From: an uncultured Ruminococcus sp.
Lineage (GTDB): Bacteria; Bacillota; Clostridia; RUG12999
Assembly (NCBI GenBank): GCA_902784805.1
Contig: CACZWD010000001.1
Span: 772 to 64,771 of the forward strand
Length of the DNA: 64,000 bases
Direction of reading: 5' to 3'
In this document: piece after piece, positions 42,539-60,455 of the stretch
Numbering within the stretch: position 1 is the stretch's first letter
How the letters are laid out: the number at the start of each line of letters is the position of its first letter
Notes under the pieces: generated by a model
Seen by the model: only the letters and a program-made list of their open reading frames with translations
What the model was told of the DNA's origin: nothing
The model's database searches: none
Translations under genes and position numbers: made by a program

Positions 42539-42550
42539 GGATGATATGCC

Positions 42551-43459: not shown

Positions 43460-43467
43460 GTTGTTAA

Positions 43468-44565
43468 ATGAAAAGAGTTTTATGTATAGTCGGAGGAATG
43501 AATGCGGGCGGCGCGGAAACATTCCTTATGAAAGTTTACCGCAGACTTGATAAAAATAAATACCAAATGGATTTTGCGGTTGCAAACGATGGCTGTTATG
43601 ATGAAGAAATACGCCTTATGGGCGGAAAAATATTTAAAATAACACCTAAAAGTCAAGGGTTTTTGAAAAATTTTTTGTCGGTGAAAAAACTTGTCAAAAA
43701 CGAGGGGTATAAATATGTTTTGCGTACATCGCAACATTCGCTTTCGGCAATGGAGCTTTTGGCGGCAAGGCTTGGAGGAGCTAAGAAGCTTATTTACAGG
43801 TCAAGTAATTCAAACACAATAGACGGGAGCAAAAAAGGCTTATTATTACATAAATTATGCGGCTTTATGCCGATATTTTTTGCGAATGTGCGTATTGCGC
43901 CTTCAACAGAGGCAGCTGAATTTATGTTTGGAAAAGACTGCGTAAAAAAAGGTAAAGCAACAATTTTAAACAATGGTATTGACATGAGGATTTTTAACTA
44001 TAATGGGCAAAACAGAAACGAATGTCGTGAAGAATTTAAGCTTAAAAATAAGTTTGTTGTAGGTCATATCGGAAGGTTTAGCGCACAAAAAAATCATGAC
44101 TTTTTGCTTGAAATATTTGCTGAAATAAAGAAAAAAAAAGAAGATTCAATCCTTTTAATTGTCGGTGGAGGCGAGCTTGAAGCAGAAATAAAGCAAAAAG
44201 CAAAGGAACTGAATGTTTTTGATAATATAGTTTTTACGGGTGTTCGAAGTGATGTTTCAAAGCTCTTAAGCGCAATGGACGTTTTTGTTTTTCCTTCGTT
44301 TTATGAAGGTATGCCAAACACGGTTATCGAGGCACAGGCAGAAGGACTTCCTTGTATAATATCCGATACAATAACAAAGGAAGCGGATATTACAGGGCTT
44401 GTAAAATATTTGCCACTTGATTTGTCGGCAGAAAAGTGGGCGGACGAAGTTATTGATTGCGTGTCTGCCGAACGCAAAGAAACAAAAGATGATTTTGTAA
44501 AAAATGGATATGATATAGATAGTGTGACAGATAAATTTATACAGTTTGTGTTTGGAGATAAATAA
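43468..44565 (+). CDS. Glycosyltransferase family 4 (GT-B)
   Basis: N-terminal VGGMNAGGAETFL and C-terminal FPSFYEGMPNTVIEAQAEGLPCIISD motifs. Confidence 0.8.
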   Translation: MKRVLCIVGGMNAGGAETFLMKVYRRLDKNKYQMDFAVANDGCYDEEIRLMGGKIFKITPKSQGFLKNFLSVKKLVKNEGYKYVLRTSQHSLSAMELLAARLGGAKKLIYRSSNSNTIDGSKKGLLLHKLCGFMPIFFANVRIAPSTEAAEFMFGKDCVKKGKATILNNGIDMRIFNYNGQNRNECREEFKLKNKFVVGHIGRFSAQKNHDFLLEIFAEIKKKKEDSILLIVGGGELEAEIKQKAKELNVFDNIVFTGVRSDVSKLLSAMDVFVFPSFYEGMPNTVIEAQAEGLPCIISDTITKEADITGLVKYLPLDLSAEKWADEVIDCVSAERKETKDDFVKNGYDIDSVTDKFIQFVFGDK

Positions 44566-45815
44566 TGAAAATAGGAACAAATAAAATACCGAATTATATA
44601 GTAAATGTATTGACAGTTTTTTTATTATTTACATTTACATCACTTAATAAAATCACTTGGGGAAGATACGCTTTTCTCGGAATTACAGCTATTATTTTTG
44701 TGATCTCAGCAAGCACATATTGCGGCGGAGTGAAATTTAGCGTGCAACCGTTTCATATTTTTTTGTTTGCTTTTGCTGTTTATTGCGGTATTTCTTCGTT
44801 TTGGGCCGTAAATCCGGCAATGTCGATATCCGATTTTAAAACAATATGTTCAATACTTATATGCTATTCTGTTATATATGCTCACTATCAAAAAGAAAAT
44901 AGTATTAATGTACTTTTTGATATTATCAAGTATTCAGGATTAGCCGTTGCTTTGTATACTATTTGTTTTTATGGATTAGATGACATGATTATATCGGCAA
45001 GTGATGAAAATTTAAGATTGGGAAATTCTTTTGCAAATGTTAACAATATTGGAGTTGTTATGGCTTTTACAATCATTATGATTTTTAAAAATTTTATTAC
45101 AAAGAGAAATTATAAAGAGCTGCTTTTAATGGCACCTTGTATTGTTGTTATTGCCGCAACACAGAGCAGAAAAGCAATGATAAGTGCAACTTTTGGAATA
45201 TTTTTAATGTTGATTGTGATTAATGAAAAGAATAAAAATTTTTATAAAAGGTTTTTTAAATTCTTTTGTGTTATTGCTATATTTGTTTTTTGTATATATG
45301 CTATTTCAAAGTTTTCAGCGTTTGTTGGCATGTCCGAACGTTTACAAAGTATGCTGGATGCGTTTAACGGAGACAAGGGAGCTGACAGTTCATCACTTAA
45401 ACGTTTGAACATGATACGTTATGGAATAAATAGTTTTAAACAGCATCCGTTTTTTGGGATAGGTATAAAAAACACATATATTATAACCCGAAGATATTGG
45501 GGAGTCAATACATATTTACATAACAATTATGTTGAGCTTTTAGCAGGCGGAGGAATATTTGGTTTCACAATATATTATTCAATATATGTATATCTAATAT
45601 ATAATGTTATAAAGTATAAAAATGTCGACAGAGAAAATTTTGGAGTTTTTACAGTATTATTAATTATTATGCTTGTTCTTGATTACGGCATAGTTACGTA
45701 TTATTCAAAGTTACAATATTTTTATTTTATGATAATGTTTTTACATATTGATTTAGTAAAGAAAAGAGTGGAATGTTTCAGTGAAGATACAAAAAATCCT
45801 CAAAGCGGCATATAA
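44565..45815 (+). CDS. wzy: O-antigen/capsule repeat-unit polymerase (Wzy / O-antigen ligase family)
   Basis: About 12 TM segments with a large loop containing the RxxxxxxxxG-like motif (TQSRKAMISATFG). AT-rich, as usual for wzy. Confidence 0.65.
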   Translation: MKIGTNKIPNYIVNVLTVFLLFTFTSLNKITWGRYAFLGITAIIFVISASTYCGGVKFSVQPFHIFLFAFAVYCGISSFWAVNPAMSISDFKTICSILICYSVIYAHYQKENSINVLFDIIKYSGLAVALYTICFYGLDDMIISASDENLRLGNSFANVNNIGVVMAFTIIMIFKNFITKRNYKELLLMAPCIVVIAATQSRKAMISATFGIFLMLIVINEKNKNFYKRFFKFFCVIAIFVFCIYAISKFSAFVGMSERLQSMLDAFNGDKGADSSSLKRLNMIRYGINSFKQHPFFGIGIKNTYIITRRYWGVNTYLHNNYVELLAGGGIFGFTIYYSIYVYLIYNVIKYKNVDRENFGVFTVLLIIMLVLDYGIVTYYSKLQYFYFMIMFLHIDLVKKRVECFSEDTKNPQSGI

Positions 45816-47901: not shown

Positions 47902-47964
47902 TATGGGGGAAAGAAACAATTTAAAGTTTTTGATATGAACCCCATTTCAGTAAATGTTGGGTTG

Positions 47965-48032: not shown

Positions 48033-48033
48033 A

Positions 48034-49038: not shown

Positions 49039-49081
49039 AATGCTTCACAATCCTTTTAAAATATTTTTTGTTTTTTGCCGG

Positions 49082-50155
49082 TTAATATAAATATTTCAAG
49101 AAATTATATTTTTGACTGAGTTTTATTATAATAAATGAAATGACGCCGCAAATTAACAGTGTACTAAAAAATAAAATGGTACATTTATATATTGAATGTA
49201 TATCATAATTTGCAGAAATATATTTGTTTAAAAGAATCATTATAGAACCATGGGAACAATATATAATTGTCGAAGTTTTTCTAAATATGGTATAAATCGG
49301 CTTATATTCAAGCGGTATTTTTAAGCATAAAATAAGTAATGAAGCCGATAACAATGGTAACATCATACAGGTTGTTCCCGATTTCGGCATATAATCTGTC
49401 GTGGTATAAAACAGCAAAAAAATCTCCGCAGCGGTTAAAATAAATAAGAAAGTAAATATAATTAATGCTTTTTTTACGGAGATATTAATACTTTCTTCAT
49501 GCTCTGCTATGATTTTACCTATAACAAAAAATATCAAAGCAAACGGGAAAGATATATAAAACGTTCCCCAATAGTGATTTATAAGATCAAATATTTTATT
49601 TAAGTGTTCTCCTGTCAAAAAATTATAGTAAGTCATAAGAAGACATATAATATAACAGAAAACAGCGATACCGATTGCAAGGCGGTTTTTGCCTTTATCT
49701 GTTTTACAGGCGAAAAACAAAAGTATAGCATCTATGATGCATGCCATTAAAAACCAGGAAGCGGGAAAGCCGTTGCCGAGTATAATATCACGAATAAGAA
49801 TAATAAACGATTTTAAAGACATATTATTTGGAAATCCGAGTTTAAACACCGCTACATAAACACCGTTTAACAAAAACCATACCGAATATAGTATAAACAG
49901 ACGTTTACAGTAATTAAAAACTCTCATGTGCGGCTCGGGACTTTTTTTCATCCCTCTGAATAAAAAATAACTGCTGGTTACAAAGAAAAACGGAACGGCT
50001 ATTCTGCAAATTACAAATATAATAAAAACGTAACCATAGCCATAAACAGAATTTTGGCGCAGAGAAAAATTACCGACCTGACAAGAATGTAACAAAATTA
50101 TAAGAATCGAAAAAACAAATTTTAAAATGTCTATTGATGCGTTTTTACTTTTCAT
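49082..50155 (-). CDS. Acyltransferase family 3 (membrane O-acyltransferase)
   Basis: N-terminal IDILKFVFSILIILLHS and 10 TM segments. Confidence 0.75.
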   Translation of the reverse strand: MKSKNASIDILKFVFSILIILLHSCQVGNFSLRQNSVYGYGYVFIIFVICRIAVPFFFVTSSYFLFRGMKKSPEPHMRVFNYCKRLFILYSVWFLLNGVYVAVFKLGFPNNMSLKSFIILIRDIILGNGFPASWFLMACIIDAILLFFACKTDKGKNRLAIGIAVFCYIICLLMTYYNFLTGEHLNKIFDLINHYWGTFYISFPFALIFFVIGKIIAEHEESINISVKKALIIFTFLFILTAAEIFLLFYTTTDYMPKSGTTCMMLPLLSASLLILCLKIPLEYKPIYTIFRKTSTIIYCSHGSIMILLNKYISANYDIHSIYKCTILFFSTLLICGVISFIIIKLSQKYNFLKYLY

Positions 50156-51210
50156 TTCGTTTTCCTTTCTCCGATAATTACAGGAACGGTATATCTTATT
50201 ATTATTGTCAGCCCATATGATATAATAACCGTAACAAAGGATATTGCGGTAACAACAAGAAAATTATCCGCCTGTGGGAAAGCGGCGTTACAGATATGGC
50301 AAAGCTTTTGAATAATAGGCTTATGAAGTAAAAAAATAGGCATCGTGCTTTTCCCCAAAGCAATAAGCGGTGAAATATTAAGTCGCATTTTTGTAACAAA
50401 AGCTGAAAAAGATGTCAGCATAACAGTTCCGAGCATTGCGTCCATAATATATAAAAAGTAATTTCCGTATTCCGAGCTTGCCATATCGACATTGTTTATT
50501 TGTATATACTTTAAATTTAATTTAAAAGTAAAGAACAAGAAAACAAAAGTAAAAACCGTAAAAAACAATAAATTTACGCCGCTGTAAAATTTAACGTATT
50601 TTCTGGTTATCACTTTAAAAATATATCCGAAAAGTATAAAGGCACATGCCATTGGCGCAACGTTAACACACCACGGATAGCCGATTTTAATGTGCGGAAG
50701 AAAATAGGAAATCATGCTTAAAACAAATGCAAATACCATTATGGTAAAATATTTGTATGGATTTTTGCATTTCAGCGAATTTACAAAACACATAATTATC
50801 TCCGTAAAGCAAACCGCCGCAAACATACACGGCAAAAACCATATTGATGTCAGGGAATCGGCAGCTTTAAAGCCGTACTGACTGCCGTACAAAATATATA
50901 GAAATGATTTAATACTGAAGGAGCCTTGTTTTATGCCGTTTAAAGCGGCATAAAACAAGGACCAGAAGGCGGCGGGGATAATTAATCTTTTTAATTTTCC
51001 GAAAACAAATAGTTTTGTTAAAAAACCTTTGTTTTCGTGAGAAGATAAATTATATGTCAAGCCGTAAACAAAAAAGAATACAGGCATATGAAAAGAGTAT
51101 ATAAACTGTTTAAGGGCATTGTCACAAAGGGGGGCGTGCGCAAATACTACCAAAAAAATAGCAAATGCTTTTAACACATCGACATAATCATATCTTTTCA
51201 TAAATATCAT
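50152..51210 (-). CDS. Acyltransferase family 3 (membrane O-acyltransferase)
   Basis: RYDYVDVLKAFAIFLVVFAHAP N-terminus. Start is ambiguous: TTG at 51216, ATG at 51210 or ATG at 51201. Confidence 0.7.
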   Translation of the reverse strand: MIFMKRYDYVDVLKAFAIFLVVFAHAPLCDNALKQFIYSFHMPVFFFVYGLTYNLSSHENKGFLTKLFVFGKLKRLIIPAAFWSLFYAALNGIKQGSFSIKSFLYILYGSQYGFKAADSLTSIWFLPCMFAAVCFTEIIMCFVNSLKCKNPYKYFTIMVFAFVLSMISYFLPHIKIGYPWCVNVAPMACAFILFGYIFKVITRKYVKFYSGVNLLFFTVFTFVFLFFTFKLNLKYIQINNVDMASSEYGNYFLYIMDAMLGTVMLTSFSAFVTKMRLNISPLIALGKSTMPIFLLHKPIIQKLCHICNAAFPQADNFLVVTAISFVTVIISYGLTIIIRYTVPVIIGERKTK

Positions 51211-52163
51211 CACCAATTTTGCAATAATATATTTGTACTTACTTCATTGAACATTCTTATACGCGCTTCAACCGTACCTCCCGCTATATGCGGCGTTACA
51301 ATAACATTTTTCATATTCTCATTCCACATACCGAAAACCTTATCGGCGTCAACATCCATACCTATACAAAAGCAGTCGTTGTCACGGGCTTTTTTAAAAA
51401 GGTGAGCGTTATCGGTAAGCTCCGACCTTGATACAGATATAAAAACCGCATTGTTCTTCATATTATTTATTCTTGAAGCGGAAATAATGCCTTCCGTTTC
51501 GGGCGTGTACGGTAAATTCAGCGAAATTATATCGGAAGATTTTATAAGCTCGTCAAGTTCCGTAAACACCACTCCGTCATCAGATAAATCGGTATGCTTT
51601 TCAGGATTTCTTGTCCATGAGATTCGTTCCATTCCGAATGCCTTTGCCATTTTAAGTACGGCTCCGGCAGTACCGCCTGCGCCGATAATGCCAATAGTCA
51701 AACCATAAAGGTCATGCGGTTTATAACGCATTTCCTTCTTGTTTTTGCCAAGCGCAGCCGTAATTTTGCCGTCAATGAACTGTTTTTTCAGCGCGATTAT
51801 AAGTCCAAAAATATGTTCTGCCACGGATATTTTATTGGCATTCGGCGCATTTACAACCTTGATAATATTTTTTTTGTCATCGGGAATACTGATATGATCC
51901 GTGCCTATGGATGCGGTTGCTATTATTTTTTTGCAAGGGGGGGTGTTTTTTAACATATTTTCGGTTATCTTTTGCGCAGTGCTTATGATTATAATATCGT
52001 ATTCATCTATAAGCTTTTTGAGTTCATTTCCACAAGGACGTTCTTTACCTTTCGGGTGAAGAATTACTTTAATATTATTTTTTTCCAGAAGCTCCGAAGC
52101 GGATTTAGGGAAATCGTCAAATACCGAATATGCTATCATATCAATTCTCTCCAAAGTAGTCAT
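51210..52163 (-). CDS. D-isomer-specific 2-hydroxyacid dehydrogenase family protein (NAD-binding)
   Basis: GIIGAGGTAGAVLKMAKAFGM Rossmann motif and a catalytic R/E/H framework (VTPHIAGGT). Confidence 0.8.
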   Translation of the reverse strand: MTTLERIDMIAYSVFDDFPKSASELLEKNNIKVILHPKGKERPCGNELKKLIDEYDIIIISTAQKITENMLKNTPPCKKIIATASIGTDHISIPDDKKNIIKVVNAPNANKISVAEHIFGLIIALKKQFIDGKITAALGKNKKEMRYKPHDLYGLTIGIIGAGGTAGAVLKMAKAFGMERISWTRNPEKHTDLSDDGVVFTELDELIKSSDIISLNLPYTPETEGIISASRINNMKNNAVFISVSRSELTDNAHLFKKARDNDCFCIGMDVDADKVFGMWNENMKNVIVTPHIAGGTVEARIRMFNEVSTNILLQNW

Positions 52164-53880
52164 TTAAATATTGTGCCGCAAACGTTCTGTCACAGGCGGC
52201 TTTTTTTTCGGCAGGCATATTTTTGAGTAAATCTATTAAAATATCTGTTGTTACCCTGCTGTCCTTTAAAAATATAGAAATATAGCTCGGTGTGCAGCCG
52301 TAAAGCGAAGAAAGGAAGTAATCCAGACAATAGCCCCACGGATTTGTCTTTATTACATTCGCAAAATACTCAGATATTTCATCATATATCTCTATGGTGC
52401 TGTAACAATTACCTTCAGAATTAAGAACGGGAATAATAAGCTCGGTGCAAAGATTTCCCGCGCCTTTTCCCATACCCGTAATGCTTGCATCAAGCATAAG
52501 ATCATGGTTTAATGGACAGTTCACTGCCACGCAAGCGTTTGCAAACGCCAACTGTCTGTTGTTGTGGGCGTGAAAACCGATTTTCATAGTGCTGCTTACG
52601 TGATGGTCAACCAGATCAAGCATATGAAGAAGAGAAACGCTGTCCATTTGTCCGAAACTGTCAACAACATAAAAAGCTTTTGCTTCCGGTAATTCTTTAT
52701 TACAACAAGCTATCAGCTCTAAAAATTCATCATCGGAATAGCGTATTGAAACCATAGGCTGAATATATAATTCGTAGCCGCGCTGCAATATTTTTTTGGC
52801 ATTTATTATTGCATCGCGCCAATTTTCTTTATGAAAAGCGTATCTTATACCATCAATACCGGAAACGTCGGCAGCTTGCAATTTATCCAAATCAAAGGTG
52901 CCGTAATCTATCATCGCAAGGTATTTAACACCTGTTTTTTTGCCTGATTTAAGTATAGTGTTTTTAATACTTGTTGGATTATCAAAACAGGTATGACCGT
53001 CATCCAAGCCTGTTTTTTCGTTTATATAGCCACATTCTATATATTCAACACCTGAATTTTCAAGACATTCCTTTATTTTAATTGCCCGTTTTAAACCAAA
53101 ATCAAATTTTATTACGATACCACCGTCGCGCAAAGTACAATCGAGAAGCTGAATTTTCCGTGTTTTCTTGGCTGTACGCATAACTCTATCGGCAATATCC
53201 AGGTCATTATCTGTCGTAATTTTAAAATTACTTGTGTGTCCTGTGACAATTTTTATTTTATATCCTGCCTTAAGCATAAGCTGAGTTGTGCCGGTAACGG
53301 CGCTTTTGTCGCTGTTACCGAAACGGTTAAGGGTATCATGTAAAAGCTTTAAATTAAAGCCGGAGGGAGTTTGTCCATTATATAAGCTGTTACGATCAAG
53401 TGTGCCTGTTATAAAATCTTTATCATTGTATGAAATAAACATCGTATCCGTTGTCGGTATTACCGTAAGGGCAAGTCCGGCTTCTTTTGTTGCTTTAATA
53501 CAATCATCAATCATTTGTTCGCTTACAAAAGGACGCACAGAATCGTGGCAAATAAGAATATCGCTGTCATTAAGTCCGGTTCTTTCTATAATATCATCCA
53601 TAATATTTACAAATGAATCAATGCGTTCTTTGCCGCCGGAAACTATGCGAATCCTTTGAAGCTCATTTTTTGAAAAATGCTGCTTAAACAGATTTTCAGC
53701 GTATTCCGTCCACTCCGGATGTACGGCGATATATATAATATCAATGTTTGTATTATCAATGAATTTACGAAGCGTCAGAAGTATAATCGGAACTCCGCCT
53801 ATTGATATGAACTGTTTTGGTATAGAGTGACGTTCTATTCGCTTTCCTGTTCCTCCTGCTAAAATTGCTGCATATATCAT
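52141..53880 (-). CDS. Bifunctional protein: N-terminal IspD/TarI-like cytidylyltransferase fused to a C-terminal HMGL-like (DmpG/pyruvate-carboxyltransferase TIM-barrel) domain
   Basis: N-terminus AAILAGGTGKRIERHSIPKQFISIGGVPII is the IspD-family signature. C-terminal half has LLDCTLRDGG (DRE-TIM) and FHAHNNRQLAFANACVAV (HxH), as in 4-hydroxy-2-oxovalerate aldolase/HMG-CoA lyase-like enzymes. AAAGGGGAAAAAAT RBS. Confidence 0.7.
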   Translation of the reverse strand: MIYAAILAGGTGKRIERHSIPKQFISIGGVPIILLTLRKFIDNTNIDIIYIAVHPEWTEYAENLFKQHFSKNELQRIRIVSGGKERIDSFVNIMDDIIERTGLNDSDILICHDSVRPFVSEQMIDDCIKATKEAGLALTVIPTTDTMFISYNDKDFITGTLDRNSLYNGQTPSGFNLKLLHDTLNRFGNSDKSAVTGTTQLMLKAGYKIKIVTGHTSNFKITTDNDLDIADRVMRTAKKTRKIQLLDCTLRDGGIVIKFDFGLKRAIKIKECLENSGVEYIECGYINEKTGLDDGHTCFDNPTSIKNTILKSGKKTGVKYLAMIDYGTFDLDKLQAADVSGIDGIRYAFHKENWRDAIINAKKILQRGYELYIQPMVSIRYSDDEFLELIACCNKELPEAKAFYVVDSFGQMDSVSLLHMLDLVDHHVSSTMKIGFHAHNNRQLAFANACVAVNCPLNHDLMLDASITGMGKGAGNLCTELIIPVLNSEGNCYSTIEIYDEISEYFANVIKTNPWGYCLDYFLSSLYGCTPSYISIFLKDSRVTTDILIDLLKNMPAEKKAACDRTFAAQYLNDYFGEN

Positions 53881-53945
53881 ATTTTTTCCCCTTTGTAATT
53901 AACTCTTTATATAATACTATATTAATTTTAATAAATTAGCATGTT

Positions 53946-55886
53946 TTATAAATTAAAATGCTCAACTATCCTTTTACAATTATTATTATCTCTGAAATCG
54001 TCCATCTTATATAGCAAAGCATTGCGTTCATCTTTATAATCATCTATATCTTTGTACACTGTGTCAAGAAAATCAAAGAGTTCTGCGTTTGTTTTAATTT
54101 TTTGTCCCGGCATATAATCATAGACATTATCCATTATAAAGCCTCTTTTATATACATCTATATCGTTAATAAAGAAGCCTATTGGTTTGTTCATCTGCAA
54201 GAAATCAAAGCTTACAGACGAATAGTCTGATAACATAGCGTCTGCATACCCTATCATTTCATACAACTGCAAATTAATATCTAAAAGATTATCATCTGTT
54301 AAATATAAAATATTGGATAGCAAAACTCGTTTCATAAAATCTAATGTCTGAAGATGGTGTACTTTAACAATCATTAACATTTTTTTGTTTTTGAGAAATT
54401 CGTTTAGTTCTTGCAATTCATCTTCATTTGATATTGTGTTTATTGAATAGATATTAAGAAACTCACCGTCCGTCCAGTATTTTGCTTGTCTAAAAGTTGG
54501 CATACACAGAATAATTTTTTGATATGTATCCTCACTTATATATTTTGATAATTTTTTCTTTATATCTATAGTTTTATACATCAAATCAAGCCTCGGTCTA
54601 CCTATGACAAGCATTTGTTCATCTTTTGCTCCCATAGCTTTAGAATACAGTTGTTTTGACCATTCTGACGATATACAATGAAAGTTTAAAAAACCGCTTA
54701 AGTCTTTACCAGCACCTTTTAATGGGATTCCATGTGACAAAGTCACAACTGTCTGATCTTTCTTCCATTTTTTCAGCCACCATGGATGCGTAAAAAAGAA
54801 ATATCTGGCTCTTGCAACATAATACCTAAGTCTTATGCTTTCATAAAAATTTGTAGGTGAAATAAATACAACATTTTCCATATTCATTTTCTTGAATCTG
54901 TTTATATTCTGTACCTTCCACACAAATCTGTATTTCTTATTATAGCCATGCTCGATCATGTATTCGAACAATGCTCTGCCATTATCACAAAAGTCACCCT
55001 CGGTTTCAAAAAACAGGGTATTGTTCGTTTTTACAATTTTAGGCATAACGGAAGAAATTATATTCATACTAAATTTTATCGCATAATTCTTTGATTTTGA
55101 AACAAGCTTCTTTAAAAATCCGACAAAGCCAACTTTCATTAGTAACAATCGTAATCTGTTTCTTCTGTACCATTTTTTGTATTTTTGTCTTCCTAATGTA
55201 CCCCCATATTTGCTATAATAATATTTCTGTTTTTTTAGATAAAGGTTTTCGAGACTTCCAAACCATGAGCCATTAAAATGATGTATTGAGACTGTGTTGT
55301 CCGTAAGTGCTATATTTCCGGTTTCATAACTTTTTGGACAAAAATAATCCTTCGGATACATAGTCAGAATACCCTCAATATTTTGATATGTATTATTGAG
55401 TTCTATATTATATTTTTCCTTTGTCATATTTGTTATTGTGATAACGTTGGTTGTATTGTCAAAGGTGCCGTCGGGTTTTACGAAATGTCTGTCATCATAG
55501 TATGATAAAAGATAGCCTACCCATTCGCCGTGGTTTTCCGACCCCATAAGGGCGGTGGGAATATGGGTTTCATCCTCAAAACCCGAAAAAGCGGTACAGC
55601 TTAAAAAGCTGTCGGGACTTTTTATAAGCTCGACATCGGTATCCATATAAAGACCGCCTTCGTTATATAAGGCGTAAAGTCTTACATAGTCCGTTATGAA
55701 CGCCCATTTTTTGTTTTCATATGCTTCCCGTACATATGTATTTGAATTTACATCAAAGTTTTTTTCGTTCCATTCCTTTATCTCATAATCGGGACAATAT
55801 TTTTTCCAGCTTTCTATATATCGTTTGGTTTCCTCCGGAAGAGGATTTCCACCAAACCAGCAATAGTGTATTATTTTTGGTATCAT
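53946..55886 (-). CDS. Fusion of a GT32-like DXD glycosyltransferase domain with a TagB/TagF-like CDP-polyol phosphotransferase domain
   Basis: N-terminal 230 aa: IIHYCWFGGNPLPE…YVRLYALYNEGGLYMDTDVEL (Gly_transf_sug/Caps_synth type). C-terminal about 400 aa has the Glyphos_transf architecture (…VTLSHGIPLKGAGKD…MLSDYSSVSFDFLQMNKPIGFF). Confidence 0.7.
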   Translation of the reverse strand: MIPKIIHYCWFGGNPLPEETKRYIESWKKYCPDYEIKEWNEKNFDVNSNTYVREAYENKKWAFITDYVRLYALYNEGGLYMDTDVELIKSPDSFLSCTAFSGFEDETHIPTALMGSENHGEWVGYLLSYYDDRHFVKPDGTFDNTTNVITITNMTKEKYNIELNNTYQNIEGILTMYPKDYFCPKSYETGNIALTDNTVSIHHFNGSWFGSLENLYLKKQKYYYSKYGGTLGRQKYKKWYRRNRLRLLLMKVGFVGFLKKLVSKSKNYAIKFSMNIISSVMPKIVKTNNTLFFETEGDFCDNGRALFEYMIEHGYNKKYRFVWKVQNINRFKKMNMENVVFISPTNFYESIRLRYYVARARYFFFTHPWWLKKWKKDQTVVTLSHGIPLKGAGKDLSGFLNFHCISSEWSKQLYSKAMGAKDEQMLVIGRPRLDLMYKTIDIKKKLSKYISEDTYQKIILCMPTFRQAKYWTDGEFLNIYSINTISNEDELQELNEFLKNKKMLMIVKVHHLQTLDFMKRVLLSNILYLTDDNLLDINLQLYEMIGYADAMLSDYSSVSFDFLQMNKPIGFFINDIDVYKRGFIMDNVYDYMPGQKIKTNAELFDFLDTVYKDIDDYKDERNALLYKMDDFRDNNNCKRIVEHFNL

Positions 55887-57427
55887 ACCTTAGCACCTTT
55901 CATTAAAAGCTTATTTTTAAGAATCTCACGTTCGTGTTTGTCGAGCATTATGAAGTAATTTATCACGCATGCCCCAATACCCATCAGTGCAATATCCAAA
56001 AGCAGCAGTATCCAACTGTTTATCGGTATCAGCATTTTTATGCCTAAAGCTAATACACTGACTATTGCTACAGAAATAATATTTTTGAGTATCAGAGGGA
56101 AAAAGGTGTGCCATTTGAAGCCGAGACATACGGCTCCATACACCGGCAAAAATGTCAGAGCGCGTATTATACTCATTATTGTGCTTACGCCAACCACTAT
56201 GTACATTTTCATATTCTCATCGGTAGTGTGTGTTAAAAGTATAAATACCAAAAGAGTCGATACACATGCATTCATAAGCAAAAATAGTGAAGACTGCCTT
56301 ACCTTGTTTGCGACGGTAAAAATATTCCACAAGGGTTCAAGCGACAAAGAAAATATGAATGCCCCTGCACCGAGTATCGATAACCGCTGAAGAAGGACGG
56401 CATCCTGCGTAGGCAACCAAAGAGCATAAAATTCCCTGCTGTACACATATAAAAAAGCCACAGGTATGCAGGCAAAAAAACCGAGTAACTTGATCGCAGA
56501 GTTAAGCTGCTGCCTTATATCCTCAAAATCATTTTTGGCATAGCTTATGGTAAGCTGCGGCGCAAATACGCTTGCAATCATTCCGAAAACTGATAAAATC
56601 TGCGTGGACAAGGTTTTGGAAATAGATACCGTTCCCATTGCCGAAACGCCAACAAAGAGGTTTGTTATGAGCAAATCTAATCCTGTTGAGAGAGTTCCGC
56701 TTAATTTTGAAATGCTGTTCCACATACCTGACATGATGAGCGTCTTTATTTTGCCAAGATCAAGATATTGTTTTTTAATTTTTACTGTCGGCAACAATTT
56801 TTTGGTATAATAAAAATTTATTGCAATTACGTACAATCCGCATACTAATGTTGAAATTCCCAGATACCATATATGCGGTTTAAAAAACATAAATGCGAAT
56901 ATAAGTATGACTACCTTTATAGCATTTGATTCAATATTTCTGAGTGAAGCCAGATAAAGCTTGTTTTTTGCAAATGTTGCCACGTTCAAAACATTACCAA
57001 TCAAACTCAATAAAAAGTTTGCAAAAAGCAACGCCCACAAAAGAGTAACATCACCAAGTATGTTTTTTGGCACATTTATAATTTTATCCAGGAATACTAA
57101 AACAAATACAGCCAATATAGTCAGTACTGATGACACAACTGCGTTTGCAGCTATAATAGAGGTAAAGAACCTATTGGTATCTTCGTATTCTTCTCTATGT
57201 ATACTTATGGTGATAAACCGTCCTGCCATTGAGTTTAACGCTGTTGTAATTATTGTAGCGTAGCTTATAAAATTATTTGCAAGCCCTACAAAACCATACG
57301 CCTCACGTCCTATATGCTTAACGATATATGGCGTTAGAAAAAAGCTTATGCAGACATTAATTCCAAAAGCAATTATTTGAGCTGCCATATTTATTGCAAG
57401 CTGCTTGTTTTTGTTCATTTTATCCAT
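55883..57427 (-). CDS. wzx: Oligosaccharide repeat-unit flippase (Wzx, MOP superfamily)
   Basis: 14 predicted TM segments, polysaccharide-biosynthesis-protein family N-terminus. Confidence 0.75.
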   Translation of the reverse strand: MDKMNKNKQLAINMAAQIIAFGINVCISFFLTPYIVKHIGREAYGFVGLANNFISYATIITTALNSMAGRFITISIHREEYEDTNRFFTSIIAANAVVSSVLTILAVFVLVFLDKIINVPKNILGDVTLLWALLFANFLLSLIGNVLNVATFAKNKLYLASLRNIESNAIKVVILIFAFMFFKPHIWYLGISTLVCGLYVIAINFYYTKKLLPTVKIKKQYLDLGKIKTLIMSGMWNSISKLSGTLSTGLDLLITNLFVGVSAMGTVSISKTLSTQILSVFGMIASVFAPQLTISYAKNDFEDIRQQLNSAIKLLGFFACIPVAFLYVYSREFYALWLPTQDAVLLQRLSILGAGAFIFSLSLEPLWNIFTVANKVRQSSLFLLMNACVSTLLVFILLTHTTDENMKMYIVVGVSTIMSIIRALTFLPVYGAVCLGFKWHTFFPLILKNIISVAIVSVLALGIKMLIPINSWILLLLDIALMGIGACVINYFIMLDKHEREILKNKLLMKGAKV

Positions 57428-57455
57428 CTCACAATCGTATTGTCCTTTTTTAATA

Positions 57456-58517
57456 TCAACCTTTTAAAGATGTAATTACAGAAAGTATTTTTTGCAAAAC
57501 AAAAACCTTTTTATCGCAGATTTTTCTGTAAAAAATCCATACTTTCAAGTAATATTTCAATCCACGCAAATTATATACTTTAAATGGAGAACAGAGTGAC
57601 TTTTTAAGCCAGCCTTTTACCGAACAAACAACATCCTTTTCGGTTACCTGCTCATTAAATATATATGCGGCATCTTCAAAAGAAGCAGCTTTTAAAAACT
57701 CATTCATAATAATCTGAGTAAAGATAAAATTTTCTTTTTTACCTAATTTAAAACCTCTTTTTTCGGCATATGCCTTAAAATCGTAACAAAGATTTATAAT
57801 TCTTTTAAATGGTAATTCTTTTATTGAGTTCATAATGGAGGTTTTACGTAAAGGATAATGATACAATATATCTTTAATAACCACTAATTTTTTCTGATAA
57901 AGCGCAACACGCAAGGCAAACGATAAATCCTCGGCAAAAATCACCTTATTATTCGCAAAAATAATACCGTTATTTTTTATAATATTTGCTCTGAAAAATC
58001 TGTTACAAGCGTTCCAGCCCGTCTTGCAATAATTAACCGCTATTTCTTCAATATAATCAAGTTTTTCGTTCGCCTTCTCGGTATAATATTCCAAAGGCTT
58101 AAATTTTGTTGCAAACAGTAAATTTCCGGCTTCGTCCTCTTTATAATAATTGAATACTACAATATCACATTTTTTTTCCTCACATACCTTCACGCAAATT
58201 TCTATTAAATTTAATTCAATATAATCATCGGGGTCATAGAAAAAAATATAATCCCCTTTTACTGCTTTTAATCCTGCGTTGCGGGCATCTGATAATCCGC
58301 CGTTTTTTTTATGTATAACCTCAATTCTGCTGTCAACGTTTTTATAGCTTTCGCATATACTATATGAATTGTCCGTTGAACCGTCATCGACCAATATTAT
58401 CTGAAGATTTTTATAGGTCTGATTTATGGCAGCATCAATACTTCTTTGTATATAATTCTCAACATTGTATATAGGAAGAATTAAACTGACTAAACCGGTA
58501 TTATCCATTTTTTTCAC
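57456..58517 (-). CDS. Glycosyltransferase family 2 (GT-A)
   Basis: SLILPIYNVENYIQRSIDAAINQTYKNLQIILVDDGSTDNS. Confidence 0.85.
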   Translation of the reverse strand: MKKMDNTGLVSLILPIYNVENYIQRSIDAAINQTYKNLQIILVDDGSTDNSYSICESYKNVDSRIEVIHKKNGGLSDARNAGLKAVKGDYIFFYDPDDYIELNLIEICVKVCEEKKCDIVVFNYYKEDEAGNLLFATKFKPLEYYTEKANEKLDYIEEIAVNYCKTGWNACNRFFRANIIKNNGIIFANNKVIFAEDLSFALRVALYQKKLVVIKDILYHYPLRKTSIMNSIKELPFKRIINLCYDFKAYAEKRGFKLGKKENFIFTQIIMNEFLKAASFEDAAYIFNEQVTEKDVVCSVKGWLKKSLCSPFKVYNLRGLKYYLKVWIFYRKICDKKVFVLQKILSVITSLKG

Positions 58518-59484
58518 TTCGCAATCTTTTTTGTTTTTTTAAAAATTCAATCGTTTTTTCGGTCGGGTAAGGAAATATATATGAAATGCAGGCTCTTAAG
58601 ACTTTTTTTACGGGTACACCGCGAAGTATATTAAAAGAAAAGTTTGTTCTGTATACCTTAACCAATTCCTTATATTTTTCCTTTGCACCCTCTTGCTTAC
58701 GGCATTTGCTGTATTCGGTCACAGCGTAATAAAGCCCGCTTGTTAGGCAACTGAATATTAAAAAATTCGGACAATTTTCACTGATATAGTATGATGCTCG
58801 CTGAAAAAAAGATTCGGCACGATCAACCATATTTTTTATAACAATTTTTGTATTCATTATACTACCCGAACGGTTAACATAGTAGTATAATCTATCAGAT
58901 AAACAAACAACACATTTTGTGTGCAGCATTACTTTGTGAATAACAAATGTATCTTCATATAATCTGCCCTTGGGGTAACGTAAGTTGTTAAAAATATTTT
59001 TTATATACAATTTATTCCATGCAACAGTCCAATGTACATTTGGAGGAGGATTAAAAAGAAAATCTCTTCCTGACATTACCGTATCAGATTGTACGCTGCT
59101 ATAATCATATGTGTCATCAATAACTTTAACTACATTACAGACTGCTATCTCCGCATTGTTTTCTTTAAGTGATTTATAAAGCTTTTCATACATATCGGGC
59201 GCGATATAATCATCACTGTCAACAAAACCTATATATTCTCCTGTTGCTTTATCAATTCCCGCATTTCGGGCATCTGACAGACCGCCGTTTTCTTTATGTA
59301 TAACAACAACTCTGTCATCTTTTTCTGCATACTCATCACATATTATTCCGCAATTATCCGGCGAACCGTCATCAACAAGGATAACCTCAATATTTGAATA
59401 TGTTTGCGCTAAAATACTGTCAACACATTTATGTATATAGGGCTCAACATTATACACAGGCACAATGATGCTTATTTTTTCCAT
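58501..59484 (-). CDS. Glycosyltransferase family 2 (GT-A)
   Basis: SIIVPVYNVEPYIHKCVDSILAQTYSNIEVILVDDGSPDN. Confidence 0.85.
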   Translation of the reverse strand: MEKISIIVPVYNVEPYIHKCVDSILAQTYSNIEVILVDDGSPDNCGIICDEYAEKDDRVVVIHKENGGLSDARNAGIDKATGEYIGFVDSDDYIAPDMYEKLYKSLKENNAEIAVCNVVKVIDDTYDYSSVQSDTVMSGRDFLFNPPPNVHWTVAWNKLYIKNIFNNLRYPKGRLYEDTFVIHKVMLHTKCVVCLSDRLYYYVNRSGSIMNTKIVIKNMVDRAESFFQRASYYISENCPNFLIFSCLTSGLYYAVTEYSKCRKQEGAKEKYKELVKVYRTNFSFNILRGVPVKKVLRACISYIFPYPTEKTIEFLKKQKRLRSEKNG

Positions 59485-59504
59485 AGAAATTCCATCCTTT
59501 AAGT

Positions 59505-60455
59505 TTATCTAAGATATTTATCTCTTAACCTGTAATATATATATTTTAAATAATCGCCTGTGTAATATTTGATACGTTCGTTTATTTCCGCTCGTGCGTT
59601 ATATGGGTTTATTTCTTTTATTGTATTGACAGAAGGAAGTTCTGCGTCGGGTTTAGCCGTAAAACCGCCGGGACCAATATAAAAGGCGTTACAGTCTTCC
59701 GAAATAGTTTCTTTAAAATCTCGCTTTTTGAAATGTATATATATATATTCATCCTTAAAGCATTTTTTATGCTTATAATAGGCTCTGAACACTTTACCAT
59801 TCTGCCAGTAAAATAACTGTTTATTATAATTATTTAAACAAAAAGCCAATTTAAAACGCTTGTATGCGGATGATATGTCCGCAAATACGAGCTTTTTATA
59901 TATTTTAAAATTATTAAAATTATATAATCTATAAATTCCGGACCATTCGTCAAAACCATATATTGCTTCATTTTCAAACACAGTTTTATAGTCGTGCATA
60001 CTGCCGAAAAGTTTATATCTGTTATTTACTTCTTTGGTATTTCTGTAAAGTGAAAGATGACCGAGGGAAAGTATCTTATCATATTCACTCAAAATATTTT
60101 CCGTGATAAATCCGCGGATGTCGCCAAAAATCAAATCAAAATCACAATGTCCCCAGAAGTCATAGCCGGATAAATAGTCTTCAAAAATATTTCCATATAC
60201 TACTTTAAAATCACAGCATTTATAAGGTTTATATAACGCTGTGTCCAATCCGAGCTTTTCATCGGCAAGCTTTTTCATTTCCTGTAATGTCATGGGGATA
60301 TGCTTAACATTTGGAGGTAAATTATCAATTTTATTATCTCCGAAAATTATGAAGTCAATGTCCGGATTATAGGAACAGGATTTTAACCATAAATTAATGT
60401 ATTCAGGCAATTTACCGAAATAAACACCTATAATACATATTGTAGTCCTATTCAT
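59505..60455 (-). CDS. Capsule-locus protein of unknown family, possibly a DXD-type glycosyltransferase
   Basis: Soluble about 316-aa protein with a CDFDLIFGD acidic motif, first gene of the minus-strand operon. Start set at the ATG at 60455 with an AGGGGGA RBS. A TTTACA-17-TATAAT promoter on the minus strand at about 60497-60530. Confidence 0.35.
   Translation of the reverse strand: MNRTTICIIGVYFGKLPEYINLWLKSCSYNPDIDFIIFGDNKIDNLPPNVKHIPMTLQEMKKLADEKLGLDTALYKPYKCCDFKVVYGNIFEDYLSGYDFWGHCDFDLIFGDIRGFITENILSEYDKILSLGHLSLYRNTKEVNNRYKLFGSMHDYKTVFENEAIYGFDEWSGIYRLYNFNNFKIYKKLVFADISSAYKRFKLAFCLNNYNKQLFYWQNGKVFRAYYKHKKCFKDEYIYIHFKKRDFKETISEDCNAFYIGPGGFTAKPDAELPSVNTIKEINPYNARAEINERIKYYTGDYLKYIYYRLRDKYLR

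What the first reader, a model, noticed from the sequence alone, without database searches (positions are those of the whole stretch)
53946..55886. Single polypeptide combining a GT32-like DXD glycosyltransferase and a TagB/TagF-like CDP-polyol phosphotransferase
The N-terminal about 230 aa carry the Gly_transf_sug/Caps_synth motif block (IIHYCWFGG…YMDTDVEL). The C-terminal about 400 aa have the CDP-glycerol glycerophosphotransferase architecture. A fusion like this would add a sugar and then a phospho-polyol (or the reverse) without releasing the intermediate. That makes it a built-in primer-plus-phosphotransferase unit. It sits directly upstream of the IspD::aldolase gene, which fits substrate channelling of the unusual CDP-activated donor.
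Basis: partly seen in the sequence, partly recalled or inferred. Interest (0 to 1): 0.6.

Follow-up and report, generated by a model that had tools for sequence, protein, structure and literature searches.

The report
Two-enzyme capsule protein: sugar plus phosphate-group transferase
This gene really does fuse a sugar-adding enzyme to a teichoic-acid-type phosphate-group-adding enzyme within a gut bacterium's capsule gene cluster, but it is an untested variant of a known kind of bifunctional enzyme, and other bacteria make the same two enzymes as separate proteins.

Summary
ORF 53946-55886 (minus strand, 646 aa) has three parts:
- aa 1-210: a Gly_transf_sug (GT32-type) DXD glycosyltransferase.
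- aa 211-285: a strongly basic helical linker.
- aa 286-646: a TagF-like (Glyphos_transf) phosphotransferase.

HMM scores, AlphaFold models (pLDDT 91 and 95) and fold searches support both domains. The DTD motif and both catalytic histidines (H385 and H510, equivalent to TagF H444 and H584) are invariant in 33 fused homologues.

The gene's start codon overlaps the stop codon of a Wzx flippase gene. It sits directly upstream of an IspD::HMGL-like gene and a 2-hydroxyacid dehydrogenase gene, inside a low-GC Wzx/Wzy polysaccharide island.

The fusion is recurrent but a minority form. GT32, TagF-like and Wzx occur together fused in other combinations or as separate adjacent genes, so covalent channelling is not required.

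The most likely function is to add a probably alpha-linked sugar and a phospho-X group from a CDP donor to the lipid-linked repeat unit before flipping.

The closest precedents are the GT/TagF-like capsule polymerases of Gram-negative bacteria and the pneumococcal wzx-wchX-gtp module.

Verdict: a new variant of a known kind, of moderate interest. The unidentified CDP donor is the more intriguing open question.

The parts
53946..55886 (-). Complete ORF (646 aa plus stop codon) of the bifunctional GT32::TagF-like protein
   Evidence: The identical ORF is present on L001 and L002. The AlphaFold2 model has mean pLDDT 91.3.
55257..55886 (-). N-terminal GT-A glycosyltransferase domain (aa 1-210), Gly_transf_sug / GT32 type
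   Evidence: PF04488 at 60 bits. The domain-only model has pLDDT 94.9. Foldseek matches: YeGT at E 8e-8, SetA, PaToxG, Och1 (9n3s) at E 2e-6. GT8 glycogenin matches only at 3e-4.
55635..55643 (-). DXD motif, D82-T83-D84
   Evidence: Codons verified. D82 and D84 are invariant in 33 fusion homologues and in 34 mixed GT32 proteins.
55032..55256 (-). Basic helical linker (aa 211-285), a probable membrane-interface segment
   Evidence: Helices 211-227, 229-242 and 244-284 in the model. It has 19 K/R against 1 D/E and a hydrophobic run LLLMKVGFVGFL. Its sequence is poorly conserved but it is net basic in all 33 homologues. The Foldseek alignments to TagF and TarL span about 430 columns, more than the 361-residue catalytic domain, so they probably include the linker. 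TarL has a 35-residue amphipathic helix at the same place (PMC10901376).
53949..55031 (-). C-terminal TagF-like GT-B phosphotransferase domain (aa 286-646)
   Evidence: PF04464 at 150 bits. phmmer hits to TagF 3l7i, Cps3D 8qoy and TarL 8va1. Foldseek matches: TagF at E 8e-22, TarL at 5e-21, Cps3D at 9e-18, Bcs3 at 2e-14.
54732..54734 (-). His385, equivalent to the catalytic base TagF H444 / TarL H300
   Evidence: Alignment to TagF wild type and its H444N variant. Invariant in 33 homologues. Codon verified. Role taken from PMC10901376.
54357..54359 (-). His510, equivalent to the second essential histidine, TagF H584 / TarL H433
   Evidence: Alignment to TagF and its histidine-to-alanine variant 3l7m. 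Invariant in 33 homologues. Codon verified.
55883..57427 (-). Wzx-type flippase (Polysacc_synt); its stop codon overlaps the fusion's start codon (ATGA)
   Evidence: A Wzx gene directly precedes the fusion in L083, L084, L085 and L087.
52141..53880 (-). IspD (TarI-like cytidylyltransferase) fused to an HMGL-like DRE-TIM domain; presumed maker of the CDP-activated donor
   Evidence: Widespread conserved cassette.
51210..52163 (-). D-2-hydroxyacid dehydrogenase family enzyme, second gene of the donor cassette
   Evidence: It accompanies IspD::HMGL-like in L088, L089 and L090.
44565..45815 (+). Wzy_C-type repeat-unit polymerase in the same low-GC island
57456..59484 (-). Two GT2 glycosyltransferase genes upstream of wzx in the same operon-like run
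   Evidence: A GT2 gene precedes the Wzx-fusion pair in L083, L084, L085 and L087.

Best explanation
The gene encodes a bifunctional enzyme that acts on the cytoplasmic face of the membrane in a Wzx/Wzy-dependent capsule or exopolysaccharide pathway.

**What each part does**
- The N-terminal GT32-type GT-A domain (DTD motif, presumably metal-dependent) transfers a hexose from a nucleotide sugar. The linkage is probably alpha, because GT32 and the nearest structural neighbours are retaining enzymes.
- The C-terminal TagF-like GT-B domain uses His385 as base and His510 to stabilise the leaving group. It transfers a phospho-X group from a CDP-X donor and releases CMP.
- The basic helical linker holds both domains at the membrane surface.

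**Pathway**
- Both additions are made to the undecaprenyl-diphosphate-linked repeat unit.
- The translationally coupled Wzx then flips the repeat unit, and Wzy polymerises it.
- CDP-X is most likely made by the two genes immediately downstream (IspD::HMGL-like and the 2-hydroxyacid dehydrogenase). Its chemical identity is unknown.

**Shown:** domain identities, conserved catalytic residues, recurrence of the architecture, synteny with Wzx and cytidylyltransferase genes, and the existence of split and re-shuffled versions.

**Inferred:** enzyme activities, substrates, stereochemistry, the order of the two steps, one addition per repeat unit rather than polymerisation, and use of the neighbouring cassette's product.
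For: **Domains and fold:**

**Invariant residues:** D82/D84, H385 and H510 are unchanged in 33 fusion homologues of 28-60% identity.

**Coupling to Wzx**
- The start codon overlaps the wzx stop codon.
- GT2-Wzx-fusion order is conserved in L083, L084, L085 and L087.
- GT32, TagF-like and Wzx recur in other fusion states:
  - GT32 next to a Wzx::TagF-like fusion (L091).
  - Wzx, TagF-like, GT32 and EpsG as separate genes in Treponema (L046).

**Pathway type:** Wzy is in the island, and no ABC transporter was found among the island's genes or among the 14 flanking ORFs that I scanned; window 1-29000 was not scanned.

**Donor genes beside the fusion or pair**
- A cytidylyltransferase or nucleotidyltransferase gene of varying family lies close to the fusion in five of six contexts.
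- The exception is L084.
- A cytidylyltransferase also lies beside the split or re-fused pair in L091 and L092.
- No LicD or Stealth phosphotransferase is present in this island, so the TagF-like domain is the only recognisable consumer of the cassette's product.
- Elsewhere the same cassette sits next to LicD or a stand-alone Glyphos_transf gene.

**Precedent:** in pneumococcal serogroup 23 the gene order is wzx, wchX (Gro-2-P transferase), gtp1-3 (CDP-2-glycerol synthesis) in a Wzy-dependent locus.
Against: - There is no biochemical data for any member of this fusion family.
- No initiating phosphoglycosyltransferase is present in the island.
- Among close homologues the adjacent cytidylyltransferase family varies (TagD-like, IspD plus SDR, IspD::HMGL-like), and one context (L084) shows none. 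Adjacency therefore does not fix donor specificity.
- The stand-alone Glyphos_transf next to the cassette in L090 is only distantly related to this C-terminal domain.
- The small L091 locus (epimerase, GT32, Wzx::TagF-like, AsnB, TagD) shows no Wzy or other glycosyltransferase in the 16.7 kb examined. A polymerase-type mode would fit that locus as well.
- The Trp that precedes the catalytic His in TarL and in most family members is Ser384 here.
Confidence: 0.6

Rival explanations
1. The protein is a self-contained polymerase. Like Cps1B, Cps3D and Cps7D of Gram-negative group 2 capsules, its two domains alternate processively to build a teichoic-acid-like poly(glycosyl-X-phosphate) chain (wall teichoic acid type II-like) on a lipid primer.
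For: - One polypeptide carrying a glycosyltransferase domain and a TagF-like domain is exactly the architecture of the characterised polymerases (PMC5974469; structures 8qoy and 8a0c are hit).
- TagF-like enzymes that polymerise carry an extra N-terminal domain, whereas primases do not (PMC10901376).
- The compact L091 locus has GT32, Wzx::TagF-like and TagD but no Wzy or further glycosyltransferases in view.
Against: - No ABC exporter (TagGH or KpsMT type) was found among the island's genes or among the 14 flanking ORFs scanned; window 1-29000 was not scanned.
- Wzx is translationally coupled to the gene, and Wzy is present.
- Four further glycosyltransferase genes in the island imply a complex repeat unit.
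- There is no TPR domain, which most known polymerases have.
- The glycosyltransferase domain belongs to a different family from those of the known polymerases.
Confidence: 0.2
2. The TagF-like domain transfers a hexose-1-phosphate from a UDP-sugar, as in the known GT-A/TagF-like polymerases CslB, Cps1B and Ccs2. It does not use a CDP-activated donor, and the neighbouring IspD::HMGL-like cassette serves another enzyme.
For: - In the characterised enzymes, the GT-A-then-TagF-like domain order goes with hexose-phosphate transfer (PMC5974469).
- Homologue P0014 has no cytidylyltransferase gene in 13 kb of context.
- DUF6625 (59505-60548) is uncharacterised and cannot be excluded as a consumer of the CDP donor.
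Against: - A cytidylyltransferase or nucleotidyltransferase gene lies close to the fusion in five of six contexts.
- A cytidylyltransferase also lies beside the split or re-fused pair in L091 and L092.
- No other recognisable phosphotransferase is in the island.
- The best sequence and fold matches are the CDP-glycerol and CDP-ribitol enzymes TagF and TarL.
Confidence: 0.1
3. One half is catalytically dead and serves only as a scaffold or membrane anchor for the other, so the protein is in effect monofunctional.
For: Ser384 replaces the Trp that stacks on the catalytic His in TarL and is present in most family members. No activity data exist.
Against: - The DXD motif, both catalytic His residues and about 30 further positions spread over both halves are invariant across 33 homologues down to 28% identity.
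- Both halves fold with high confidence.
- Several other close homologues also lack the Trp but keep the His.
Confidence: 0.05

Closest known systems
TagF-like capsule polymerases of Gram-negative group 2 capsules (CslB, Cps1B, Cps12B, Ccs2 = GT-A/TagF-like; Cps3D, Cps7D = TagF-like/GT-B; Bcs3)
   Same: - One polypeptide combines a glycosyltransferase domain with a TagF-like phosphotransferase domain.
- The two catalytic His residues and a DXD motif are conserved.
- The N-terminal GT-A then TagF-like order matches Cps1B and CslB (PMC5974469).
- Cps3D and Bcs3 structures are significant fold matches.
   Different: - The GT-A domain here is GT32-type and nearest to retaining enzymes. In the known polymerases it is modelled on the inverting K4CP domain.
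- There is no TPR domain, and the protein is roughly half the size (646 aa, against 1246 aa for Cps1B and an 1149-aa chain for Cps3D).
- The locus is Wzx/Wzy-type, not ABC-transporter-type.
- The hosts are anaerobic gut Bacillota, Bacteroidota and Treponema rather than Pasteurellaceae and Neisseria.
- A cytidylyltransferase is next door, whereas the known GT-A/TagF-like enzymes transfer hexose-1-phosphate from UDP-sugars.
Pneumococcal wzx-wchX-gtp1-gtp2-gtp3 module (glycerol-2-phosphate side group in serogroups 15 and 23)
   Same: A phosphotransferase gene lies immediately after wzx and immediately before the genes that make its CDP-activated donor, in a Wzy-dependent locus. The phosphotransferase adds one phospho-polyol per repeat unit. 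That WchX is a Glyphos_transf-family protein is from memory, not tested here.
   Different: - WchX is a stand-alone protein without a glycosyltransferase domain.
- The donor genes are three separate genes there, against a fused IspD::HMGL-like gene plus one dehydrogenase here.
- I could not test whether Gtp1 and Gtp3 belong to the 2-Hacid_dh and HMGL-like families, because no sequences were available.
TagF (S. epidermidis) and TarL (S. aureus) wall teichoic acid polymerases
   Same: - GT-B fold, with Foldseek E 8e-22 and 5e-21.
- Catalytic His pair.
- A basic or amphipathic helix precedes the GT-B domain.
- The donor is CDP-activated.
   Different: - Sequence identity is only about 20%.
- Their N-terminal domains are non-catalytic (Ig-like in TarL), not a glycosyltransferase.
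- They act in ABC-transporter-dependent teichoic acid synthesis and are processive.
GT32 / Gly_transf_sug glycosyltransferases (fungal Och1) and the related bacterial toxin GT-A enzymes (YeGT, SetA, PaToxG, Lgt1, TcdA/B)
   Same: PF04488 match, DXD motif, and a GT-A fold with these proteins as the best structural neighbours.
   Different: - Structural similarity is moderate (TM-score 0.4-0.57, 11-20% identity).
- The toxins glycosylate host proteins, and Och1 acts on N-glycans.
- Here the domain sits in polysaccharide loci and is fused promiscuously to other glycan-modifying domains: GT2, GT4, pyruvyl transferase, epimerase_2, GtrA and a second GT32.

Membership tests
TagF-like phosphotransferases (Pfam Glyphos_transf, PF04464) | Profile match above the curated threshold over most of the domain | tested here: met
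   150 bits against a cut-off of 22.1, covering profile positions 7-363 of 367.
TagF-like phosphotransferases (Pfam Glyphos_transf, PF04464) | GT-B two-Rossmann fold superposable on TagF and TarL | tested here: met
   Model pLDDT 91. Foldseek matches: TagF at E 8e-22 (TM-score 0.70 normalised to target), TarL at 5e-21, Cps3D and Bcs3.
TagF-like phosphotransferases (Pfam Glyphos_transf, PF04464) | Two invariant catalytic histidines (TagF H444/H584; TarL H300/H433) | tested here: met
   H385 and H510 align to them and are invariant in 33 homologues.
TagF-like phosphotransferases (Pfam Glyphos_transf, PF04464) | Membrane-binding basic or amphipathic helices preceding the GT-B domain | tested here: inconclusive
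   The linker is helical, has 19 K/R against 1 D/E and contains a hydrophobic run. Its hydrophobic moment is only moderate, 0.3-0.4.
TagF-like phosphotransferases (Pfam Glyphos_transf, PF04464) | Transfer of a phospho-alditol or phospho-sugar from a nucleotide-diphosphate donor with release of the nucleoside monophosphate | not testable with these tools
   This needs an enzyme assay.
GT32 / Gly_transf_sug (PF04488) glycosyltransferases | Profile match above the curated threshold | tested here: met
   60 bits against a cut-off of 23. Homologues also hit Caps_synth PF05704.
GT32 / Gly_transf_sug (PF04488) glycosyltransferases | DXD metal and nucleotide-sugar binding motif | tested here: met
   D82-T-D84, invariant.
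GT32 / Gly_transf_sug (PF04488) glycosyltransferases | GT-A fold closest to GT32 and toxin-type retaining enzymes rather than another DXD family such as GT8 | tested here: met
   YeGT at 8e-8, SetA, PaToxG, and Och1 (GT32) at 2e-6. GT8 glycogenin and 3tzt match at only 3e-4 to 5e-4.
GT32 / Gly_transf_sug (PF04488) glycosyltransferases | Retaining stereochemistry (alpha-linked product) | not testable with these tools
   Inferred from family knowledge only.
TagF-like capsule polymerase family (Litschko et al. 2018) | Glycosyltransferase domain and TagF-like domain in one polypeptide | tested here: met
TagF-like capsule polymerase family (Litschko et al. 2018) | The glycosyltransferase domain is K4CP-like GT-A (inverting) or TarM-like GT-B | tested here: not met
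   The N-terminal domain is GT32-type, and no K4CP or TarM structure is among the 50 listed fold matches.
TagF-like capsule polymerase family (Litschko et al. 2018) | ABC-transporter-dependent (group 2) capsule locus | tested here: not met
   Wzx and Wzy are present. No ABC transporter was found among the island's genes or among the 14 flanking ORFs scanned; window 1-29000 was not scanned.
TagF-like capsule polymerase family (Litschko et al. 2018) | TPR domain (present in most members) | tested here: not met
   All 646 residues are accounted for by the two domains and the linker.
TagF-like capsule polymerase family (Litschko et al. 2018) | Processive synthesis of an alternating polymer | not testable with these tools
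   This needs in vitro polymerisation assays.
Pneumococcal WchX/Gtp-type side-group module | Phosphotransferase gene between wzx and the CDP-donor genes in a Wzy-dependent locus | tested here: met
   Window order: wzx, fusion, IspD::HMGL-like, 2-Hacid_dh, with Wzy in the island. Pneumococcal order.
Pneumococcal WchX/Gtp-type side-group module | Sequence homology of the donor genes to Gtp1, Gtp2 and Gtp3, and of the TagF-like domain to WchX | not tested
   No pneumococcal sequences could be fetched, and the Gtp biochemistry paper is not in the library.

The most novel reading that the evidence does not exclude
The IspD::HMGL-like plus 2-hydroxyacid dehydrogenase cassette makes a CDP-activated donor not yet described. 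One possibility is a phosphorylated hydroxy-acid or deoxy-aldonate built by an aldol-type or enolpyruvate-type step and then reduced. This fusion protein would then install that residue, together with an alpha-linked sugar, on capsule repeat units. Because the cassette is highly conserved across gut Bacillota, Bacteroidota and Spirochaetota, that would be a widespread, chemically new phosphodiester-linked capsule substituent. The GT32::TagF-like enzyme would be its dedicated two-step installer.
Probability: 0.25. Interest if true: 0.7.

Novelty: new variant of a known kind. Interest (0 to 1): 0.4.

Why it matters
Bifunctional GT/TagF-like enzymes are valued tools for cell-free synthesis of teichoic-acid-like vaccine antigens. 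So far they are known only from ABC-transporter-dependent capsules of Gram-negative pathogens.

This family would extend the principle in three directions:
- to a different glycosyltransferase family (GT32-type, probably alpha-linking);
- to Wzx/Wzy pathways;
- to abundant gut commensals.

It also gives a compact 646-aa enzyme to test.

The recurring association of GT32, TagF-like and Wzx in every fusion state gives a rule of thumb for spotting phosphodiester-containing repeat units in uncharacterised capsule loci.

The neighbouring donor cassette is annotated in databases as a ribitol-5-phosphate cytidylyltransferase, but it carries an extra DRE-TIM domain and a partner dehydrogenase. That points to an unidentified activated donor in many gut bacteria.

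Tried and rejected
1. **Literature.** Searches for the architecture (PF04488 with PF04464; GT32 with glycerophosphotransferase; TagF-like with Wzx and Wzy; IspD with HMGL) found nothing describing this fusion or the cassette.
2. **CDP-2-glycerol test.** I tried to test whether the cassette equals the pneumococcal Gtp1-3 pathway.
   - The key paper is not held.
   - Bentley et al. has no supplementary text held.
   - Other papers give only gene order and generic names.
   - The idea remains an untested lead.
3. **Stand-alone Glyphos_transf beside the cassette in L090.** I checked whether it is a close relative of this C-terminal domain, which would have indicated a donor-specific clade. It is only distantly related.
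4. **Stand-alone HMGL-like gene in L074 (Bacillus).** It lies in a Kdo-type locus and is not informative.
5. **DUF6625 (59505-60548).** I checked it as a possible alternative phosphotransferase. It has no PDB or NCBIfam match and remains unknown.
6. **AFDB fold search.** The afdb50 library was not available.
7. **Genome scan bias.** The scan's peptide patterns all came from the GT32 half, so most of the 80 loci returned are GT32-only proteins. I re-screened them by tblastn with each domain separately.
8. **Source organism.** It could not be named. The nearest fused homologues are from Oscillospiraceae and other Clostridia MAGs.
Full report

Yes. An uninterrupted 646-codon ORF occupies 53946-55886 on the minus strand. 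Two independently assembled metagenome contigs (L001, L002) encode the identical protein with the same neighbours.

Pfam finds two domains:
- Gly_transf_sug (PF04488) at aa 17-96: 60 bits, cut-off 23.
- Glyphos_transf (PF04464) at aa 279-642: 150 bits, cut-off 22, nearly the whole profile.

The next gene downstream on the same strand, 65 nt away, is IspD fused to an HMGL-like domain.

**2. Domain anatomy**

An AlphaFold2 model built on 33 homologues is confident: mean pLDDT 91.3, with no segment below 50. Its pTM is only 0.69, so the relative orientation of the two halves is less certain.

*C-terminal half.* It matches TagF, TarL and the capsule multienzymes Cps3D and Bcs3.

| Structure | Foldseek E-value |
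|---|---|
| TagF | 8e-22 |
| TarL | 5e-21 |
| Cps3D | 9e-18 |
| Bcs3 | 2e-14 |

phmmer finds the same proteins by sequence. In that alignment His385 (SHGIPLK) pairs with TagF H444, and His510 (KVHHLQ) pairs with TagF H584. These are the two histidines essential in TagF, TagB and TarL (H300/H433), acting as base and as leaving-group or transition-state stabiliser (PMC10901376).

*N-terminal half.* Modelled alone (pLDDT 94.9), it is a GT-A fold. Its best solved neighbours are retaining DXD enzymes: YeGT (8e-8), SetA, PaToxG, the GT32 enzyme Och1 (2e-6), Lgt1 and TcdA/B. GT8 enzymes score two to three orders of magnitude worse.

*Linker.* Between the domains lie about 75 helical residues with 19 Lys/Arg against 1 Asp/Glu and a hydrophobic run, LLLMKVGFVGFL. 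Its sequence is poorly conserved, but it is net basic in every homologue. TarL has a 35-residue amphipathic membrane-binding helix at the equivalent position. I read the linker as a membrane-interface element. This is an inference.

**3. Is the fusion an accident of this genome?**

No. The large protein collection holds dozens of 90% clusters with the same two-domain architecture, 600-700 aa long and 28-60% identical.

In an alignment of 33 of them, D82, D84, H385, H510 and about 30 other positions spread over both halves are invariant. Both halves are therefore under selection for function.

The hosts span several groups:
- Oscillospiraceae and other Clostridia.
- A Bacteroidota-type locus with UpxY/UpxZ-like genes.

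Treponema carries the two domains as separate genes (see section 4).

One member is annotated at NCBI simply as 'CDP-glycerol glycerophosphotransferase family protein'.

The fused form is nevertheless a minority. At 50% clustering, only about five full-length fused representatives appear among the best 150 of 13,336 hits. The nearest relatives of each half are mostly stand-alone proteins of about 250 aa and about 390 aa.

The GT32 domain is also fused to many other partners: GT2, GT4, pyruvyl transferase, epimerase_2, GtrA and a second GT32.

**4. Genomic context and what it implies**

*The island.* The gene lies in a low-GC island, 41480-60548 (GC 0.334 against 0.42 in the flanks). The island is flanked by housekeeping genes. 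It encodes:
- two GT4, two GT2 and DUF6625;
- a glucuronyl C5-epimerase-like protein;
- Wzy;
- a TupA-like ATP-grasp enzyme and a PGA_cap protein;
- three Acyl_transf_3 proteins;
- Wzx.

No ABC exporter and no initiating phosphoglycosyltransferase is present among the island's genes or among the 14 flanking ORFs I scanned; window 1-29000 was not scanned.

*Coupling to Wzx.* The fusion's ATG overlaps the wzx stop codon (ATGA). In four homologous loci a GT2 gene and wzx directly precede the fusion.

*Fusion states.* GT32, TagF-like and (in most cases) Wzx recur in every fusion state:

| Arrangement | Locus |
|---|---|
| Wzx, then GT32::TagF-like | this window |
| GT32, then Wzx::TagF-like | L091 |
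| Wzx, TagF-like, GT32, EpsG as separate genes | Treponema L046 |
| TagF-like, then GT32 as separate genes | Clostridia MAG L042 |
| GT32, then TagF-like in the same frame but with three stop codons in the linker region | six L. plantarum plasmids, e.g. L092 |

This pattern is strong evidence that the activities work on the same lipid-linked intermediate. It equally shows that covalent linkage of the two transferases is optional.

**5. The donor**

A cytidylyltransferase or nucleotidyltransferase gene lies close to the fusion in five of six contexts, and beside the split or re-fused pair in two more. Its family varies.

| Context | Adjacent donor gene(s) |
|---|---|
| This window | IspD::HMGL-like plus 2-Hacid_dh |
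| L083 | TagD-like |
| L086 | TagD-like (CTP_transf_like) |
| L085 | IspD plus SDR |
| L087 | NTP_transferase plus SDR |
| L084 | none seen |
| L091 (GT32, then Wzx::TagF-like) | TagD-like |
| L092 (split pair) | TagD-like |

The IspD::HMGL-like plus 2-Hacid_dh pair is itself a widespread cassette:
- Its fusion protein has more than 120 clusters at 63-75% identity, from Oscillospiraceae, Paludibacteraceae, Prevotella and Treponema. NCBI names it 'D-ribitol-5-phosphate cytidylyltransferase'.
- Elsewhere it sits beside LicD or a stand-alone Glyphos_transf, which are other phosphotransferases that use CDP donors.
- In this island the TagF-like domain is the only recognisable phosphotransferase.

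The product is unknown. The DRE-TIM domain's best solved relative is an uncharacterised 'putative aldolase', 3dxi. The dehydrogenase resembles phosphoglycerate dehydrogenases and glyoxylate reductases.

One lead could not be tested. In pneumococcal serogroup 23 the order wzx, wchX (Gro-2-P transferase), gtp1 (dehydrogenase), gtp2 (nucleotidyltransferase), gtp3 is the same layout. If Gtp1 and Gtp3 turn out to be 2-Hacid_dh and HMGL-like proteins, the donor is simply CDP-2-glycerol.

**6. Mechanism**

*Most likely (confidence 0.6).* The GT32 domain adds a hexose, probably alpha-linked. The TagF-like domain adds phospho-X from CDP-X. Both act on the undecaprenyl-diphosphate-linked repeat unit at the inner face of the membrane. 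Wzx then flips the unit and Wzy polymerises it. The order of the two steps and the identities of the sugar and of X are not determined.

*Rivals.*
- **Alternating polymerase (0.2).** The protein would work like Cps1B or Cps7D. The architecture and the sparse L091 locus favour this. The Wzx/Wzy context, the apparent absence of an ABC exporter, the four other glycosyltransferases and the missing TPR domain count against it.
- **Hexose-1-phosphate transfer from a UDP-sugar (0.1).** This is what the known GT-A/TagF-like enzymes do.
- **One dead domain (0.05).** Conservation of the catalytic residues contradicts this.

**7. Comparison with what is known**

A glycosyltransferase plus a TagF-like domain in one chain is established for Gram-negative group 2 capsule polymerases (PMC5974469). 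In those enzymes, single-domain mutants complement each other in trans.

This protein differs from them in four ways:
- its glycosyltransferase family (GT32-type instead of K4CP-like GT-A or TarM-like GT-B);
- the lack of a TPR domain;
- its size;
- its Wzx/Wzy context.

It therefore fails several membership criteria of that polymerase family while working on the same principle. Functionally, the nearest analogue for the C-terminal half is probably pneumococcal WchX.

No paper in the searchable library describes this fusion.

**8. Verdict**

The domains, the adjacency and a plausible donor link hold. 'Primer', 'no release of the intermediate' and 'channelling' do not.
- It is a new variant of a known kind, with interest about 0.4.
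- The more open question is the chemistry of the neighbouring donor cassette.

Noticed in passing
window 51210-53880 (-); L088 9001-11682; L090 9001-12734: IspD::HMGL-like plus 2-hydroxyacid dehydrogenase is a widespread cassette. Its fusion protein is 63-75% identical across Oscillospiraceae, Paludibacteraceae, Prevotella and Treponema, and NCBI annotates it as ribitol-5-phosphate cytidylyltransferase. Its product is unknown. It sits next to LicD or TagF-like phosphotransferases. The DRE-TIM domain reads DCTLRDGGI, so (from my recollection of DmpG, not tested here) it lacks a His at the position of the DmpG catalytic base.
   Followed up: partly
L091 6162-9691 (protein P0059): An 896-aa Wzx::TagF-like fusion (Polysacc_synt at aa 15-287, Glyphos_transf at aa 532-892) lies directly after a stand-alone GT32 gene and before AsnB-like and TagD-like genes. 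The locus is compact, with no Wzy or other glycosyltransferase in view.
   Followed up: partly
L092 8995-10989 (Lactiplantibacillus plantarum SRCM103426 plasmid NZ_CP035176.1, and five similar plasmids): GT32 (238 aa) and TagF-like (383 aa) genes lie in the same order and the same reading frame as the fusion, but three stop codons separate them in the linker region. A TagD-like cytidylyltransferase, an AsnB-like gene and a flippase follow. This is either a broken fusion or the pre-fusion state, and it is in a culturable organism.
   Followed up: partly
L088 18208-19731 (protein P0043): A 538-aa protein with two tandem GT32 / Caps_synth domains lies in a locus that also carries the IspD::HMGL-like cassette, three LicD genes, a Stealth protein and a second IspD plus SDR pair.
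   Followed up: no
window 41480-60548: Low-GC island (0.334 against 0.42 in the flanks) between a Na:Ala symporter gene and AzlC, RecN and ArgR genes. It carries Wzx and Wzy but no initiating phosphoglycosyltransferase, Wzz or CpsD-type regulator, so initiation must be encoded elsewhere.
   Followed up: partly
window 48034-51216 (-): Three consecutive Acyl_transf_3 (membrane O-acyltransferase) genes lie directly downstream of the donor cassette, which suggests heavy O-acylation of the polymer.
   Followed up: no
window 42551-43459 (+), 45781-46698 (+), 46774-47901 (+): A D-glucuronyl C5-epimerase C-terminal-like protein, a TupA-like ATP-grasp enzyme and a PGA_cap (CapA-like) protein lie in the divergent half of the island. 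This hints at an epimerised uronic acid and amino-acid or peptide decoration.
   Followed up: no
window 59505-60548 (-): A DUF6625 protein (309 bits to PF20330) heads the minus-strand gene run. It has no PDB or NCBIfam match. It contains an HCDFDLIFGD stretch that could be a DXD-like motif. Its function is unknown, and it cannot be excluded as another transferase.
   Followed up: partly
window 54735-54737 (Ser384): The residue before the catalytic His is Ser here. It is Cys, Gly or Thr in some close homologues. TarL has Trp299, proposed to stack on the protonated His, and most family members keep Trp.
   Followed up: no
L042 6854-10065: In a Clostridia MAG, a TPP-dependent enzyme of about 370 aa lies just upstream of the split TagF-like and GT32 pair. 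Its size and domains resemble a phosphonopyruvate decarboxylase (my own comparison, not tested), which hints that some relatives may handle phosphonate-type donors.
   Followed up: no
L074 8785-16078 (Bacillus sp. ISL-41): A stand-alone GT32 gene lies next to a Kdo-type gene set (KdsA-, KdsD- and KdsB-like), three MptE-like (DUF115) genes and a 540-aa HMGL-like protein. This is a different context for both the GT32 and HMGL-like modules.
   Followed up: no
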